A stretch of DNA of 32,000 bases from Adlercreutzia mucosicola DSM 19490 (lineage in GTDB: Bacteria > Actinomycetota > Coriobacteriia > Coriobacteriales > Eggerthellaceae), in the NCBI RefSeq assembly GCF_000422625.1, contig NZ_AUGK01000003.1, forward strand, positions 178,374-210,373. Direction: 5' to 3'. Positions 15,179-17,980 of the stretch are shown here, piece after piece; the first letter of the stretch is position 1; the number at the start of each line of letters is the position of its first letter. A program made the translations under genes and the position numbers. The notes under the pieces were generated by a model, which searched no databases, had not been told where the DNA came from, and saw nothing but the letters and a program-made list of their open reading frames with translations.

Positions 15179-17659
15179 ATGGCTTCCTCCCCCCTCATAT
15201 TGGATCGTTATCGCGTCGTCGGCCAGGCCGGCGCCGGCGGCTACGGCACCGTTGTGCACGCCTTCGACACCCACCTCAAGCGCGATGTGGCTATCAAGTG
15301 CATCGAGTTGTCGGAAGACGAAGTGGCCCGCGCGCGCCTGGTTGCCTTGGAGGCGCGCATGGCCGCCGATTTGGAAGGCGGCCAAGGAGCCGCCGCGGCC
15401 GCAGGCCGAGTGGCTGGTGCGGTGGGATCGGCGGGGTCGGCGGCTCGCGGCCGCTCGGGAGCGTCCGCGAGTTCTGCCGTCGCCGGCCGTGCAGCCAGCG
15501 CTGCCGCCCCGGCGGCTCCGTCGTTCCCTTCCGACCCCGACTTCCTGCGCGGAGTGGACGAGCGGCGCGCCGGCGTGGCGTCCCGGCGCAGCGTGCCGAC
15601 GGCGGCCGATGAAGTGCCCCCCTGGGAAGATGCCGTTGCAACGCCCGAGGCTCCCTGGGAGGCGACGATCGTGCCCTGGGGCGCCGGCACGGCCGGCTTC
15701 GACGCGGGTCCCGCAGCAGGCGCGGGGGTTGACGGCCGCGCCATCCCGCGTAAGACGCGCCACGCCCCCGAGGCGGCCTATGTACCGCCCGTGGAGGTGC
15801 AGGAAGCCGCGCCCATCAGCGACTACTTCGACGAGAGCGCCGTGGACGTGCGCCATTTGCGTGGCATTCGCCCCTCGCGCACCATCGACGGGGCTACCGA
15901 GCGTCGCCGGCGCCGCGGCGGCCGCCACACCGTCCGCACCGAGTCCGCGGCAGCCAGTGCGCCGGTGGTCTCGCGGCCGGCTCCCTCGACCGACTTCGAA
16001 GAGCCCGACGACGCCGATCTGTTCGAGCACATTCCCGGCTTGGAAGAGGCCCGTTCTGTCGCGAAGCTGTCCGATGCCAACATCGTCACGGTGTACGATT
16101 GCGCCGTGGAGGACTCCACGGCCTACGTGATCATGGAGTACATCGAGGGCAAGACCCTGGCCGAGATCATCGATGAGATCGACGACAGCATCACCCTCGA
16201 CATTGTGGCCGCTGTGTTCACGGCCGTGTCCCACGCTTTGGAAGTGGCCCACGGCGAGCAGACCCTGCACTTGGATATCAAGCCCGAGAACGTCATCGTG
16301 AACTCCAAGGGCGTGGCCAAGGTGACCGACTTCGGCCTGGCCGCCCTGATGGATGCCACCGGCTCGGGCACCACCGGAGGCGGCACCATCGGCTACATGC
16401 CCTTGGAACAGATGCGCCAGGAGCCTCTGGATGTGCGCACCGACGAGTGGGCCCTGGCGAGCCTCACCTACGAGATGCTCACTGGCTCCAACCCGTTCTT
16501 CGCCTCCACTCTGCGCGCCGCCGAGGAGCTCATCGAAGACGCCGAGCTGGTGCTGCCCTCGCTGTGCTGGGACGAGCTTGACGCCGAGGCCGACGACATC
16601 ATGTTCATGGCCCTGGATCCGGAGATGGACGAGCGTTTCGGCACCGTGACGGAGTTCGCCGAGGCGCTCACGCCGCTGCTCGGCAACGCGAAGAAGGGCA
16701 AGAAGGCCCTGGCCGACATCGTGAAAGGCGTCGATCTGCCCGAGGCCGACCCCGAGCCCGAGCGGCCCCGCGAGCCGTTGGCCCCCTTCGTGGATCGCCT
16801 GGGGTTGCGCGGGGCCGCCATCGTTGCTCGCATTGTGAGTGCCCTTGCGGTGGGCCTGCTGGCCGCCGTGGGTCTGGCGAACATTCACCTGAATGCCGGC
16901 TCGCCGGGCGGCTTGCTCGACGACGCGACTGTGGTGTACTGGGTGCTGGTGGCGGTGTGCGCGGCGGTAGCGGCGGTGCGCCCCAGCATCGGCATCCTGT
17001 TCGGCTACGCCATGCTGGCCGCGGGCCTGGCTGGGGCGGGCGCTTGGGCACTTACCCTGCTTTTGGCCGCGGTGGTGGCGGGCTGGTGGTATCTCGTGGG
17101 ATGCCGCGGCACGTCCCAGGCCACGGTGGCGCTGCTGCAGCCGCTGTTCGGCTCCATCGGTTTCGGCGGCTTGGCTCCGGTGGGCGCGGGCGTGTTTCTG
17201 CCCGTGATCCAGTCGGCTCTGACGGCGGCCTTCGCCTTCTTCGTGGCCCTCATCATGGCGGCCTGCGGCTCCATGGACGTGATGAATTGGGATGCGCTGC
17301 TGCACTTCAGCTTCAGTAACAATCCCCAGGCGGCCTGCGTGGCCCTCATCTCCCAGGGCGGCACCTGGGTCATCGGCATCAGCTGGGTGGTGGCCGCGGC
17401 TGCCTACAGCCTCTGCTGCGTGCGCGGCACCAAGGCCTTCGACGTGGCCGGTGCCGTGATCGCGGCCGTGGTGCTCATCGCCGGTGCCTGCGCGGCGGCC
17501 CATCTCACCAACTTCGGCGGTTCGTGGCTGCCCGCTCCTTCGGCCCTGCTCGGCGCTTTGGTGCCCGGCGTCATCGGCATCATCGCCGCCGCCATGAACA
17601 TCCCCGACCGAGCCCGCTGGGCCGAAGAAGAGTGGTATCTGGACGACGAGGCGGTCTAG
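15179..17659 (+). CDS. Hanks-type Ser/Thr protein kinase with a long low-complexity insertion in the N-lobe and a polytopic C-terminal membrane domain
   Basis: GAGGYGTV, VAIK, then ~220 aa of Ala/Arg/Pro-rich sequence, then NIVTVYD, HLDIKPEN, DFGLA, GTIGYMPLE. Multiple hydrophobic helices from about 16810 to the end. ATG 15179 follows AAGAGG (alternative ATG at 15143). Confidence 0.85.
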   Translation: MASSPLILDRYRVVGQAGAGGYGTVVHAFDTHLKRDVAIKCIELSEDEVARARLVALEARMAADLEGGQGAAAAAGRVAGAVGSAGSAARGRSGASASSAVAGRAASAAAPAAPSFPSDPDFLRGVDERRAGVASRRSVPTAADEVPPWEDAVATPEAPWEATIVPWGAGTAGFDAGPAAGAGVDGRAIPRKTRHAPEAAYVPPVEVQEAAPISDYFDESAVDVRHLRGIRPSRTIDGATERRRRRGGRHTVRTESAAASAPVVSRPAPSTDFEEPDDADLFEHIPGLEEARSVAKLSDANIVTVYDCAVEDSTAYVIMEYIEGKTLAEIIDEIDDSITLDIVAAVFTAVSHALEVAHGEQTLHLDIKPENVIVNSKGVAKVTDFGLAALMDATGSGTTGGGTIGYMPLEQMRQEPLDVRTDEWALASLTYEMLTGSNPFFASTLRAAEELIEDAELVLPSLCWDELDAEADDIMFMALDPEMDERFGTVTEFAEALTPLLGNAKKGKKALADIVKGVDLPEADPEPERPREPLAPFVDRLGLRGAAIVARIVSALAVGLLAAVGLANIHLNAGSPGGLLDDATVVYWVLVAVCAAVAAVRPSIGILFGYAMLAAGLAGAGAWALTLLLAAVVAGWWYLVGCRGTSQATVALLQPLFGSIGFGGLAPVGAGVFLPVIQSALTAAFAFFVALIMAACGSMDVMNWDALLHFSFSNNPQAACVALISQGGTWVIGISWVVAAAAYSLCCVRGTKAFDVAGAVIAAVVLIAGACAAAHLTNFGGSWLPAPSALLGALVPGVIGIIAAAMNIPDRARWAEEEWYLDDEAV

Positions 17660-17790
17660 ATCGCAGCGAGGATGCAGCCCCCAAGGGCGCTCTCCCTCCG
17701 CCTTCGGGATTCTGGGACCACGGCCGCCTCAACGGGCGTTTCTGACGAGGGCTTGTGCGATCTGAGAAAAAATCGCTGAAAGTGGCGCTG

Positions 17791-17801
17791 GATTGCGAAA
17801 A
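17791..17801 (+). other. Candidate attL core
   Basis: GATTGCGAAAA, identical to 25363-25373 in direct orientation. Confidence 0.5.
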
Positions 17802-17980
17802 GTAGGCACCTGGGATGCGCAACATGCGAAACACTGGATAACGGGCCGGTGCTTTCACGGGTCAGCTTCGACGGGTTTTCCGCAAAAGTGGTAGAGCGGT
17901 GCGCATGCGCTTACTTTCTACCATTTCGAATCGCAAGGGCGACGGGATGCCGCCGCCGAGATTCGTTAGAGAGGTAGATT

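What the first reader, a model, noticed from the sequence alone, without database searches (positions are those of the whole stretch)
17773..17846. Left junction: 11-bp direct-repeat core, with the host flank mirrored by phage DNA at the other end
Seen in sequence:
- GATTGCGAAAA occurs at 17791-17801 and again, in direct orientation, at 25363-25373. These are the only candidate attL and attR cores I found.
- The 30 nt ending at the left core (17773-17802, TCGCTGAAAGTGGCGCTGGATTGCGAAAAG) is the reverse complement, at 28 of 30 positions, of 25330-25359 at the right end.
- Just inside the left end, GGCACCTGGGAT (17805-17816) and TGCGAAACAC (17825-17834) are complementary to right-end segments.
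Inference, with two possible models:
- (a) Crossover occurred within the 11-bp core. The reconstructed attB is ...GTGGCGCTG-GATTGCGAAAA-AAAGCCCCCGCC..., which is the U-tract side of the neighbouring gene's terminator.
- (b) The phage inserted into the centre of a pre-existing palindromic, REP-like host element. This would resemble IS110-family elements and Nf phages that target repeated palindromes.
Basis: partly seen in the sequence, partly recalled or inferred. Interest (0 to 1): 0.7.

Follow-up and report, generated by a model that had tools for sequence, protein, structure and literature searches.

The report
RNA-guided filamentous prophage in host repeats

Summary
The repeats are in the sequence as described: GATTGCGAAAA at 17791 and 25363, and a 31-nt inverted match between 17773-17803 and 25329-25359. 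They are not prophage junctions. Eight uninterrupted copies of this locus from other Adlercreutzia mucosicola-type assemblies carry all of them. Host DNA runs to 17917 and resumes at 25301, with a 2-nt TT overlap.

The insert (17918-25300, 7,383 bp) is an inovirus-like prophage. It has Zot, a rolling-circle Rep and small membrane proteins. It also encodes an IS110-family recombinase (23464-24669) related to the solved bridge recombinases IS621 and ISCro4.

The roughly 230-nt gap upstream of the recombinase gene holds a conserved structured RNA.
- One internal loop has a 5' arm (UACUU, 23299-23303) that copies the left target flank.
- Its 3' arm (UGCGAAA, 23319-23325) is the reverse complement of the core plus right flank.
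- Eight related phage types fall into six guide classes at more than ten host sites. In each, this loop changes together with the site: 6-7 of 7 cognate matches against 0-5 non-cognate.

Model (a), crossover in the 11-bp core, is refuted. Model (b), insertion into a pre-existing host repeat as IS110 elements and Nf phages do, is right in spirit but wrong in coordinates. The donor loop, RNA expression and circular form remain unshown.

The parts
17773..17803 (-). Host repeat unit in inverted orientation (rc = ACTTTTCGCAATCCAGCGCCACTTTCAGCGA).
   Evidence: Present in all uninterrupted loci.
17794..17804 (-). Unoccupied perfect copy of the 11-nt target TACTTTTCGCA
   Evidence: 0 mismatches.
17804..17917 (.). 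Host spacer between the inverted units. It ends in the left target flank ...GCGCTTACT plus TT.
   Evidence: collinear with the empty sites up to 17917.
17916..17917 (+). TT overlap ('core') at attL
   Evidence: 2-nt overlap in five empty sites.
17918..25300 (+). Inovirus-like prophage of 7,383 bp. All genes but one are on the + strand.
17918..17928 (+). Conserved phage left end CTACCATTTCG (right donor half). It is the inverted repeat of 25284-25294. TACCAT (17919-17924) is a -10-like hexamer.
17981..19645 (+). Six small ORFs (17981-18352, 18362-18604, 18605-18994, 18982-19203, 19302-19463, 19487-19645). Several have one hydrophobic helix and look like coat or morphogenesis proteins.
   Evidence: translations. 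No Pfam or PHROG hit. Syntenic in all relatives.
19746..21392 (+). Large repeat-containing ORF at the position of the adsorption protein. The start is uncertain (19557 or 19746).
   Evidence: 42-nt x3 and 75-nt x2 repeats. No family hit.
21653..22270 (+). Zot / pI-type assembly ATPase
   Evidence: PF05707, E = 1.5e-22.
22415..23233 (+). Rolling-circle replication initiator
   Evidence: PF23343, E = 8.5e-19; phrog_3419; 50% identity to the Rep of bajarodino virus 9.
23289..23333 (+). Candidate target-binding loop of a bridge RNA. It consists of an outer stem (23289-23293 with 23329-23333), a 5' arm (23294-23303) and a hairpin (23304-23318). A 3' arm (23319-23328) follows. The left target guide UACUU is 23299-23303 (the next U, 23304, closes the hairpin). 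The right target guide UGCGAAA is 23319-23325, with complementarity running on to 23327.
23362..23394 (+). Second conserved stem-loop, a candidate donor-binding loop. Its 5' arm GAUGAGCUGGAU contains AGCUGG, the same as left-donor bases 25293-25298.
   Evidence: The assignment is unresolved.
23464..24669 (+). IS110-family DEDD/Ser recombinase, 401 aa
   Evidence: PF01548 (8.6e-38) and PF02371 (1.4e-27). ISCro4 and IS621, E about 1e-30; an identical protein is named 'IS110 family RNA-guided transposase [Adlercreutzia mucosicola]'.
24666..24989 (-). Conserved acidic 107-aa ORF on the opposite strand, function unknown
   Evidence: Present as a 105-115-aa ORF in every relative. No Pfam or PHROG hit.
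24986..25205 (+). Conserved, highly structured non-coding region. It may be a packaging signal or an origin.
   Evidence: only sub-threshold spurious Rfam hits. (conservation).
25280..25300 (+). Conserved phage right end. It contains the -35-like TTGACG (25280-25285) and the inverted repeat CGAAATGATAG (25284-25294). The left donor half AGCTGGTG is 25293-25300.
25301..25302 (+). TT overlap ('core') at attR
25301..25359 (+). Two tandem host repeat units (25301-25328 and 25332-25359). The first starts with the right target flank TCGCA. A spare target copy AACTTTTCGCA is at 25328-25338.
25363..25373 (+). It is host DNA. It forms an 11-bp inverted repeat with 25331-25341 and overlaps the A-tract of the terminator hairpin (about 25374-25412) of the minus-strand DUF6724 gene (25441-25635).

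Best explanation
What the repeats are. The region 17773-25373 is a host intergenic repeat cluster. It has one inverted and two direct copies of a 28-31-nt unit, plus a partial inverted copy. A filamentous (inovirus-like) prophage of 7,383 bp sits inside it at 17918-25300. They are not products of integration.

How the phage integrates. It uses its own IS110-family recombinase (23464-24669). A bridge RNA encoded in the gap just upstream (about 23265-23460) guides it.
- In an internal loop of this RNA, the 5' arm (UACUU, then a U that closes the hairpin) has the sequence of the left target flank (TACT) plus the first core T.
- The 3' arm (UGCGAAA, extending to AG) is the reverse complement of the core TT plus the right flank TCGCA.
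- This is the geometry described for the IS621 target-binding loop. [quoted passage not shown] - Recombination between attB (...GCTTACT-TT-TCGCAATCC...) and the phage junction (...GATAGCTGGTG-TT-CTACCATTTCG...) leaves only the 2-nt overlap at both ends.

How expression may be switched. In the circular replicative form, the right end supplies a -35 (TTGACG) and the left end a -10 (TACCAT) at 18-nt spacing. Integration splits this pair. The phage operon, and with it the RNA and recombinase, should therefore be driven mainly from the circle.

In effect the phage is an IS110-type element. About 5.3 kb of inovirus genes lie between its donor site and its guide RNA.

Shown:
- the junctions and the empty site;
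- the gene content;
- conservation of the RNA structure;
- covariation between guide and target.

Inferred:
- that the RNA is made and used;
- how the donor is recognised;
- the junction promoter;
- the details of strand exchange.
For: Junctions.
- Looking up the 64-aa DUF6724 protein found 8 uninterrupted loci.
- Host identity with the window runs to 17917 and restarts at 25301, with a 2-nt TT overlap in 5 of 5 testable empty sites.

Phage identity.
- Zot, a rolling-circle Rep and small ORFs are present.
- The nearest deposited phages are circular rodent-gut inoviruses, bajarodino virus 26 and 9.

Recombinase.
- It has the DEDD_Tnp_IS110 and Transposase_20 domains.
- It is homologous to the solved bridge recombinases ISCro4 and IS621. 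The GID..K, MESTG, KTDAVD and SKRGS motifs align.

Guide RNA.
- The only 9-mer in the phage complementary to attB lies in the rep-tnp gap, and the matching 5' arm lies 15 nt upstream of it.
- Relatives with 54-79% identical recombinases have the same synteny but sit at other host loci.
- In those relatives the 3' arm is the exact reverse complement of the core plus right flank. This holds in six guide classes:
  - UGCGAAA with TT|TCGCA
  - UGACCA with TG|GTCA
  - CAAGCCA with TG|GCTTG
  - GCAGAGA with TC|TCTGC
  - CGACCUG with AG|GTCG
  - UGGCAGA with TC|TGCC
- Cognate pairs match at 6-7 of 7 positions and non-cognate pairs at 0-5.
- The 5' arm tracks the left flank, with 6-8 of 8 cognate matches.
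- The same guide is found at several independent host loci. GCAGAGA occurs at four or more, and CAAGCCA at two.

RNA structure.
- Four helices with 18 pairs are 100% paired. Seven pairs show compensatory changes, and 0 of 500 shuffles reach this.

Junction promoter.
- The in-silico circular junction gives TTGACG-N18-TACCAT (9 of 12) under the scanner's rule.
- The integrated right end gives no promoter-like site.
Against: - No transcript data exist. No sigma-70-like promoter lies directly upstream of the RNA.
- The window sequence alone does not fold better than shuffles (z = 0.4 and 0.6). The structure rests on comparative evidence only.
- No Rfam family matched the region.
- The expected donor-binding loop is not convincingly identified. 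Only AGCUGG matches the left donor half, it lies 2 nt from the core, and no arm complementary to the right donor half was found.
- In relatives, the 2 nt at attL (TT or TC) differ from those at attR (TG, TC, AG). A strict 2-nt shared core therefore holds only in the window.
- The circular junction was not found in any collection.
- The left guides are U-rich and discriminate poorly.
- One relative (L107/L109) sits at a site that matches only 3 of 5 right-flank bases.
Confidence: 0.85

Rival explanations
1. The prophage spans about 17802-25362 and integrated by site-specific recombination within the 11-bp core GATTGCGAAAA, which is therefore duplicated at both ends.
For: The 11-mer is directly repeated and over-represented.
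Against: - Both copies, and all DNA from 17802 to 17917 and from 25301 to 25362, are present in 8 uninterrupted loci.
- No tyrosine or serine integrase is encoded.
- A third exact copy and a fourth near-exact copy of the 11-mer exist.
Confidence: 0.01
2. The IS110-family gene and its upstream RNA are a passenger insertion sequence inside the phage. The phage itself integrates by another route, for example host XerCD or an unidentified factor.
For: - The module (RNA, recombinase gene, antisense ORF) is absent from the closest deposited episomal inoviruses. It is therefore an add-on.
- The recombinase gene lies 0.6 kb and 5.5 kb from the element ends, unlike in an IS.
Against: - The RNA loop matches the phage's chromosomal attB, not the phage DNA flanking the module.
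- The module sits at the same position in all relatives down to 54% identity, with no IS boundaries or variable placement.
- The phage ends, not the module ends, are conserved and carry the split -35/-10 pair typical of IS110 elements.
- No dif-like site or other integrase was found.
Confidence: 0.04
3. The recombinase integrates the phage, but site choice is made by the protein or by DNA-DNA homology. The complementarity in the rep-tnp gap would then be incidental, or would reflect something else such as an antisense regulator.
For: - RNA expression is unproven.
- The donor loop is unresolved.
- The targets are T-rich repeat or terminator-like sequences that a protein might also recognise.
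Against: - Six independent guide classes covary with their sites at fixed alignment columns. The strand sense and arm order are those published for IS621.
- The flanking helices are maintained by compensatory changes while the loop arms vary.
- The recombinase is homologous to enzymes whose RNA guidance is shown structurally (PMC11208158).
Confidence: 0.08

Closest known systems
IS621 / ISCro4 (IS110 group) bridge recombinase with bridge RNA (Durrant et al. 2024, PMC11208160; Hiraizumi et al. 2024, PMC11208158)
   Same: - The recombinase has DEDD and Ser-Tnp domains and is homologous (E about 1e-30).
- The structured RNA is encoded just upstream of the gene.
- In the internal loop, the 5' arm copies the left target flank and the 3' arm is antisense to the core plus right flank.
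- Insertion is scarless with a roughly 2-nt core.
- The -35 lies in the right end and the -10 in the left end.
- Repeated palindromic host elements are preferred targets.
   Different: - The mobile unit is a 7.4-kb virus. About 5.3 kb of phage genes lie between the donor site and the RNA.
- The right target guide is long: 5 nt of flank plus the core, with 2 further complementary nt.
- The second core position need not match between donor and target in relatives.
- The donor-binding loop is not recognisable by the IS621 rules.
- The ends carry an 11-bp inverted repeat (10 of 11), a feature of the IS1111 group.
Neisseria Nf/MDA filamentous prophages (Kawai et al. 2005, as cited in PMC11209303; PMC7058167) and Acinetobacter baumannii Af1 (PMC11209303)
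   Same: - These are inoviruses that carry an IS110-family (Piv/Irg-type) transposase instead of an integrase.
- Nf phages insert into repeated palindromic host sequences.
- No long att direct repeats are produced.
   Different: - Their hosts are Gram-negative.
- In the papers I could search, no guide RNA or guide-target covariation is described for them.
- Sequence relatedness to the present phage was not tested.
REP-targeting IS110/IS1111 elements (ISPpu9/ISPpu10; IS621 in E. coli REPs; IS4321/IS5075 in Tn21 inverted repeats)
   Same: They target one flank of a short repeated palindromic host or transposon sequence. This gives many safe landing sites.
   Different: - Here the repeat is low-copy as far as tested.
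- The inserting element is a phage.
Bajarodino viruses 9 and 26 (rodent-gut Inoviridae, PQ006132, PQ006168)
   Same: - Zot, Rep (50% identity) and the structural-gene order are shared.
- 15-20% of the prophage aligns at 67-71% DNA identity.
   Different: They are circular genomes of 5.8-6.2 kb. They have no RNA/recombinase/antisense-ORF module and no evidence of integration.

Membership tests
IS110-family bridge-RNA recombination system | Recombinase with an N-terminal DEDD RuvC-like domain and a C-terminal Tnp domain carrying the catalytic Ser | tested here: met
   PF01548 at 8.6e-38 and PF02371 at 1.4e-27; alignment to ISCro4 and IS621, with the GID..K, KTDAVD and SK(R/A)G motifs aligned.
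IS110-family bridge-RNA recombination system | Conserved structured non-coding RNA next to the recombinase gene | tested here: met
   18 pairs, 100% paired, 7 with compensatory changes, 0 of 500 shuffles. Expression was not tested.
IS110-family bridge-RNA recombination system | Target-binding loop in which the 5' arm has the sense of the left target and the 3' arm is antisense to the core plus right target, covarying with the insertion site | tested here: met
   six guide classes; 6-7 of 7 cognate matches against 0-5 non-cognate.
IS110-family bridge-RNA recombination system | Donor-binding loop complementary to both halves of the element junction | tested here: inconclusive
   only AGCUGG matches the left donor half, offset 2 nt from the core. 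No arm complementary to the right donor half was found. The donor is nearly invariant, so covariation cannot be scored.
IS110-family bridge-RNA recombination system | Scarless insertion around a short core, with no longer target-site duplication | tested here: met
   2-nt TT overlap.
IS110-family bridge-RNA recombination system | Circular intermediate whose junction rebuilds a promoter | tested here: inconclusive
   TTGACG-N18-TACCAT forms in silico and is absent from the integrated end. No circular junction was found in the public collections.
Inoviridae (filamentous phage) | Zot/pI-type assembly ATPase, rolling-circle Rep, a run of small membrane-protein genes and a genome of 5-10 kb on one strand | tested here: met
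   Nearest deposited relatives are classified as Inoviridae.
Inoviridae (filamentous phage) | Filamentous ssDNA virion | not testable with these tools
   Needs virion isolation.
   both copies are present in the empty sites.
   none among the ORFs scanned.
REP/BIME- or MITE-like dispersed host repeat | Short units in alternating orientation within intergenic regions | tested here: met
   The same inverted pair occurs at another locus in A. muris.
REP/BIME- or MITE-like dispersed host repeat | Many copies dispersed in the genome | tested here: inconclusive
   an exact-pattern scan of 185,579 species genomes gave only chance-level single hits plus one A. muris locus. The window's own genome was not among the hits, so its copy number is unknown.

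The most novel reading that the evidence does not exclude
This Eggerthellaceae inovirus lineage may be a natural RNA-programmable integrating virus that departs from the IS621 rules in three ways.
- A roughly 10 x 10-nt RNA loop alone sets attB. It has been rewritten repeatedly among close relatives to reach different host repeats.
- The donor is recognised without a canonical donor-binding loop, for example through the 11-bp terminal inverted repeat. Only one shared base is then needed at the crossover.
- A promoter that is split on integration serves as the lysogeny switch in place of a repressor.
Probability: 0.3. Interest if true: 0.75.

Novelty: new variant of a known kind. Interest (0 to 1): 0.6.

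Why it matters
- Prophage boundary calling. Searching for direct repeats is misled when the element leaves only a 2-nt overlap and lands inside host repeats. The most conspicuous repeats here are the target family, not the scars of integration.
- Phage biology. If the guide RNA is functional, this is a filamentous phage family whose chromosomal attachment site is written in a short RNA loop. That loop has been rewritten at least six times among close relatives. This would explain how such phages hop between host repeats and host species. In the literature I could search, guide-target covariation has not been described for any IS110-bearing inovirus.
- Practical use. It is a natural example of a bridge recombinase moving a 7.4-kb cargo in gut Actinomycetota (Adlercreutzia, Eggerthellaceae). 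Few genetic tools exist for these bacteria.

Tried and rejected
- Rfam scan of 17000-26000 at E <= 1. It gave only sub-threshold spurious hits (miRNA, archaeal SRP, sRNAs) and no bridge-RNA family.
- Single-sequence folding of the rep-tnp gap and of the loop region. Neither folds better than shuffles.
- Close-relative search for the recombinase in IMG/VR with the single protein found none. With the family alignment it found only 27-32% identical genes in unrelated larger viral contigs.
- Search for the circular attP junction GATAGCTGGTNNNCTACCWTTT. There were 0 hits in viral contigs, and 3 chance hits with unrelated flanks in JGI metagenomes.
- Genome-wide count of the host unit. The scan of one genome per species gave 78 single hits. 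Only one of them, the A. muris locus, shows the unit arrangement. L033, checked directly, is a chance match in low-GC coding DNA. The rest are single hits in unrelated taxa, roughly the number expected by chance. The window's own species did not appear, so dispersal within its genome remains untested.
- Search for a donor-binding loop.
  - I compared both arms of the second stem-loop, the 5' hairpin region and the right-end non-coding region with the two donor halves.
  - Only AGCUGG is consistent. The variable 3' arm correlates with neither donor nor target.
  - I also tried reading the two bases after the right target guide as IS621-type handshake guides. They pair with the target's own left flank, not with the donor. 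This is my own reading.
- Alternative crossover registers (core TC inside TCTACC, or core right after GCTGG) were rejected. The window's empty site fixes the junction.
- Non-coding regions of bajarodino viruses do not align with the phage ends.
- L008 looked like a second occurrence of this insertion. It is 100% identical over 4.6 kb, so it is the same strain and not independent evidence.

Full report
**1. The observation**

The 11-mer GATTGCGAAAA is at 17791-17801 and 25363-25373 on the + strand, as reported. It also occurs exactly on the minus strand at 25331-25341, and with one mismatch at 25300-25310. That is 4 matches against 0.35 expected by chance.

The inverted match is 31 nt at 94% (17773-17803 against 25329-25359). 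The right-hand unit is tandemly duplicated at 25301-25328 and 25332-25359. One minor claim fails: GGCACCTGGGAT has no complement with 2 or fewer mismatches near the right end.

**2. These repeats are host DNA**

I looked up the exact 64-aa product of the neighbouring minus-strand gene (25441-25635, DUF6724) in public assemblies.
- The look-up returned ten places.
- Eight (L001-L007, L009) have the Ser/Thr kinase gene and the DUF6724 gene 370-400 nt apart, with no phage.
- One (L008) carries the phage. It is 100% identical to the window over 4.6 kb, so it is the same strain.
- One (L010) is a more distant relative with a shorter spacer.

Aligned to the window, the uninterrupted loci contain the left unit, a further 114 nt (17804-17917), the right unit or units, and the second 11-mer.

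A base-by-base walk shows host identity up to 17917 and again from 25301. Two bases, TT, are shared, and the empty site reads ...GCG(C/T)TTACT-TT-TCGCAATCC.... The insert is therefore 17918-25300 (7,383 bp).

The 'mirror' is simply host repeat against host repeat.

**3. What the insert is**

All genes but one are on the + strand. The order is as follows.
- Six small ORFs, several with a single hydrophobic helix.
- A large repeat-bearing ORF.
- An 85-aa ORF.
- Zot (PF05707, 1.5e-22).
- A rolling-circle Rep (PF23343, 8.5e-19; phrog_3419).
- A 230-nt gap.
- An IS110-family recombinase (PF01548, 8.6e-38; PF02371, 1.4e-27).

A 107-aa ORF lies on the other strand.

The nearest deposited phages are circular rodent-gut inoviruses of 5.8-6.2 kb. 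They share Zot and Rep (50% identity), and they lack the gap, the recombinase gene and the antisense ORF.

An identical recombinase is on record as 'IS110 family RNA-guided transposase [Adlercreutzia mucosicola]'. Its closest solved relatives are the bridge recombinases ISCro4 and IS621 (E about 1e-30), with the catalytic motifs aligned.

**4. The guide RNA**

Published work on IS621 gives the rule (PMC11208160).
[quoted passage not shown] - Both pairings include the core.

I searched the phage for short matches to the reconstructed attB.
- The only 9-mer, TGCGAAAAG at 23319-23327, is the reverse complement of CTTTTCGCA. It lies in the rep-tnp gap.
- Fifteen nt upstream, TACTTT at 23299-23304 copies the left flank plus core.
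- A hairpin, GCGGC-CAG-ACCGC, lies between the two.

Proteins 54-79% identical to the recombinase were traced to their contigs.
- All lie in syntenic inovirus prophages: Zot, Rep, a gap of about 225 nt, the recombinase gene and the antisense ORF.
- The ends are conserved: CTACCATTTCGA... on the left and ...TTGAC(G/A)AAnTGATAGCTGGTn on the right.
- The host loci differ from one phage type to another.

At fixed alignment columns, the 3' arm of the loop is the reverse complement of the bases that follow the phage right end.

| Locus | 3' arm (guide) | Core and right flank |
|---|---|---|
| window | UGCGAAA | TT\|TCGCA |
| L011 | UGACCA | TG\|GTCA |
| L022 | UUGACCA | TG\|GTCAA |
| L014-L017 (two host loci) | CAAGCCA | TG\|GCTTG |
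| L018, L020, L021, L106, L110, L111, L113 (four or more host loci) | GCAGAGA | TC\|TCTGC |
| L026 | CGACCUG | (C)AG\|GTCG |
| L112 | UGGCAGA | TC\|TGCC |

- Cognate guide-site pairs match at 6-7 of 7 positions, and non-cognate pairs at 0-5.
- The 5' arm follows the left flank: UACUU with TTACT|T, GCACUUUU with GCACTTT|T, UGUUUU with GTGTTT|T, and AAUCU with GAATC|T. These arms are U-rich and less discriminating, at 6-8 of 8.
- The helices that frame the loops are kept by compensatory changes. There are 18 pairs, all paired, 7 with double changes, and 0 of 500 shuffles reach this. All slid registers fall to 28-62% paired.

The arm order and strand sense equal those of IS621.

**5. What remains open**

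- A second, nearly invariant stem-loop (23362-23394) has a 5' arm containing AGCUGG, identical to bases 25293-25298 of the right end. This match stops 2 nt short of the core, and no arm complementary to the left end was found. Donor recognition is unresolved.
- In the window the overlap is a clean TT. In relatives the two bases at attL are TT (or TC), while those at attR are TG, TC or AG, and the RNA matches the attR version. IS621 cuts on either side of its CT core (PMC11208158). With unequal cores that would give mixed outcomes, so the one-sided pattern here is unexplained.
- No transcript evidence exists, and no promoter-like site lies directly upstream.
- The fold is no better than shuffles thermodynamically.
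- No Rfam hit was obtained.
- No circular junction was found in public data.

**6. A split promoter**

Joining the ends in silico gives TTGACG-N18-TACCAT. This passes the same rule the scanner uses, at 9 of 12. The integrated right end has no such site.

Both hexamers are conserved in the relatives aligned. L112, which was not in those alignments, has TACCTT at the -10 position.

This mirrors the IS110 logic and would tie phage, RNA and recombinase expression to the circular form. It is an inference.

**7. The host repeats**

- The target TACTTTTCGCA survives unoccupied at 17794-17804 (minus strand, perfect) and at 25328-25338 (one mismatch).
- Strains differ in having one or two copies of the 31-nt unit.
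- The same inverted pair of units, with a different spacer, occurs at another locus in Adlercreutzia muris.
- Otherwise a scan of one genome per species found only chance-level hits. Whether this is a dispersed family in the window's own genome is untested.
- Relatives of the GCAGAGA class sit at the T-tract edge of REP-like palindromes, AAAAGTGCGATCGTGCGAG-loop-CTCGCACRATCGCACTTTT, at several loci.

**8. Comparison and novelty**

IS110-family transposases in inoviruses are known from Neisseria Nf/MDA and from A. baumannii Af1 (PMC7058167, PMC11209303). RNA-guided IS110 recombination has been known since 2024.

Three literature searches found no paper that describes a bridge RNA, or guide-site covariation, in a filamentous phage. 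That is only the library I could search.

I file this as a new variant of a known kind. It is an IS110-type system whose cargo is a whole inovirus, in a Gram-positive gut actinobacterium. Its target loop has been rewritten naturally, and its donor side looks atypical.

**9. Verdict**

- The finding as written, an 11-bp att core at a left junction, is wrong.
- The underlying locus is nevertheless informative.
- Confidence in the corrected junctions is about 0.97.
- Confidence in RNA-guided integration by the phage's own recombinase is about 0.85.

Noticed in passing
window 20487-20636 and 20799-20944: Two in-frame tandem repeats lie inside the large ORF at the adsorption-protein position. One is 2 x 75 nt (73% identical). 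The other is 3 x 42 nt and encodes EWADRWDVQDRVLM.
   Followed up: no
window 22255-22375: A 25-nt, 92% complementary hairpin lies just after zot. It is followed by CCCCTATTAACTTGATTAAGTCACACAATTGAAC, which is nearly identical in the distant relative L022. It is a candidate replication origin or Rep nick region upstream of rep.
   Followed up: partly
window 24986-25205: A long structured non-coding region in the phage right end is strongly conserved in all relatives. It drew spurious sub-threshold Rfam hits (archaeal SRP, a miRNA). It may be a packaging signal or a minus-strand origin.
   Followed up: partly
window 24666-24989 (-): The only minus-strand gene of the phage is an acidic 107-aa protein. 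It is conserved (105-115 aa) in every relative, directly abuts the recombinase gene, and has no Pfam or PHROG match. It could be a regulator or a directionality factor.
   Followed up: partly
L107 and L109 right junction: A phage with the GCAGAGA guide is inserted at TC|TGAGC, which matches only 3 of 5 right-flank bases. This is a natural off-target insertion.
   Followed up: partly
L003, L004, L006 versus L001, L002, L005, L007, L009 (empty sites): There is a copy-number polymorphism at the attB: one versus two copies of the 31-nt host unit. Strains therefore offer one or two direct target copies.
   Followed up: partly
L090 398-568 (Adlercreutzia muris): The same 31-nt unit occurs as an inverted pair around an unrelated spacer of about 125 nt, at a different intergenic locus. 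This hints at a small mobile or regulatory repeat shared by the genus.
   Followed up: partly
L016, L017, L113, L114, L115 contig ends: Metagenome contigs stop 3-7 nt past the phage right end. The assembly graph seems to fork at the junction. This is expected if the same phage sits at several sites or coexists with its circular form in the sample.
   Followed up: no
L111 8684-9891: In one relative the recombinase gene is split into two ORFs (116 and 296 aa). This may be a decaying, immobilised prophage copy.
   Followed up: no
L010 6196-6329: In a more distant relative, the same kinase-DUF6724 spacer is only 134 nt. It holds a single unit whose start forms a perfect 12-bp palindrome, GATTGCGCAATC. 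The unit may derive from, or act as, a protein-binding site.
   Followed up: no
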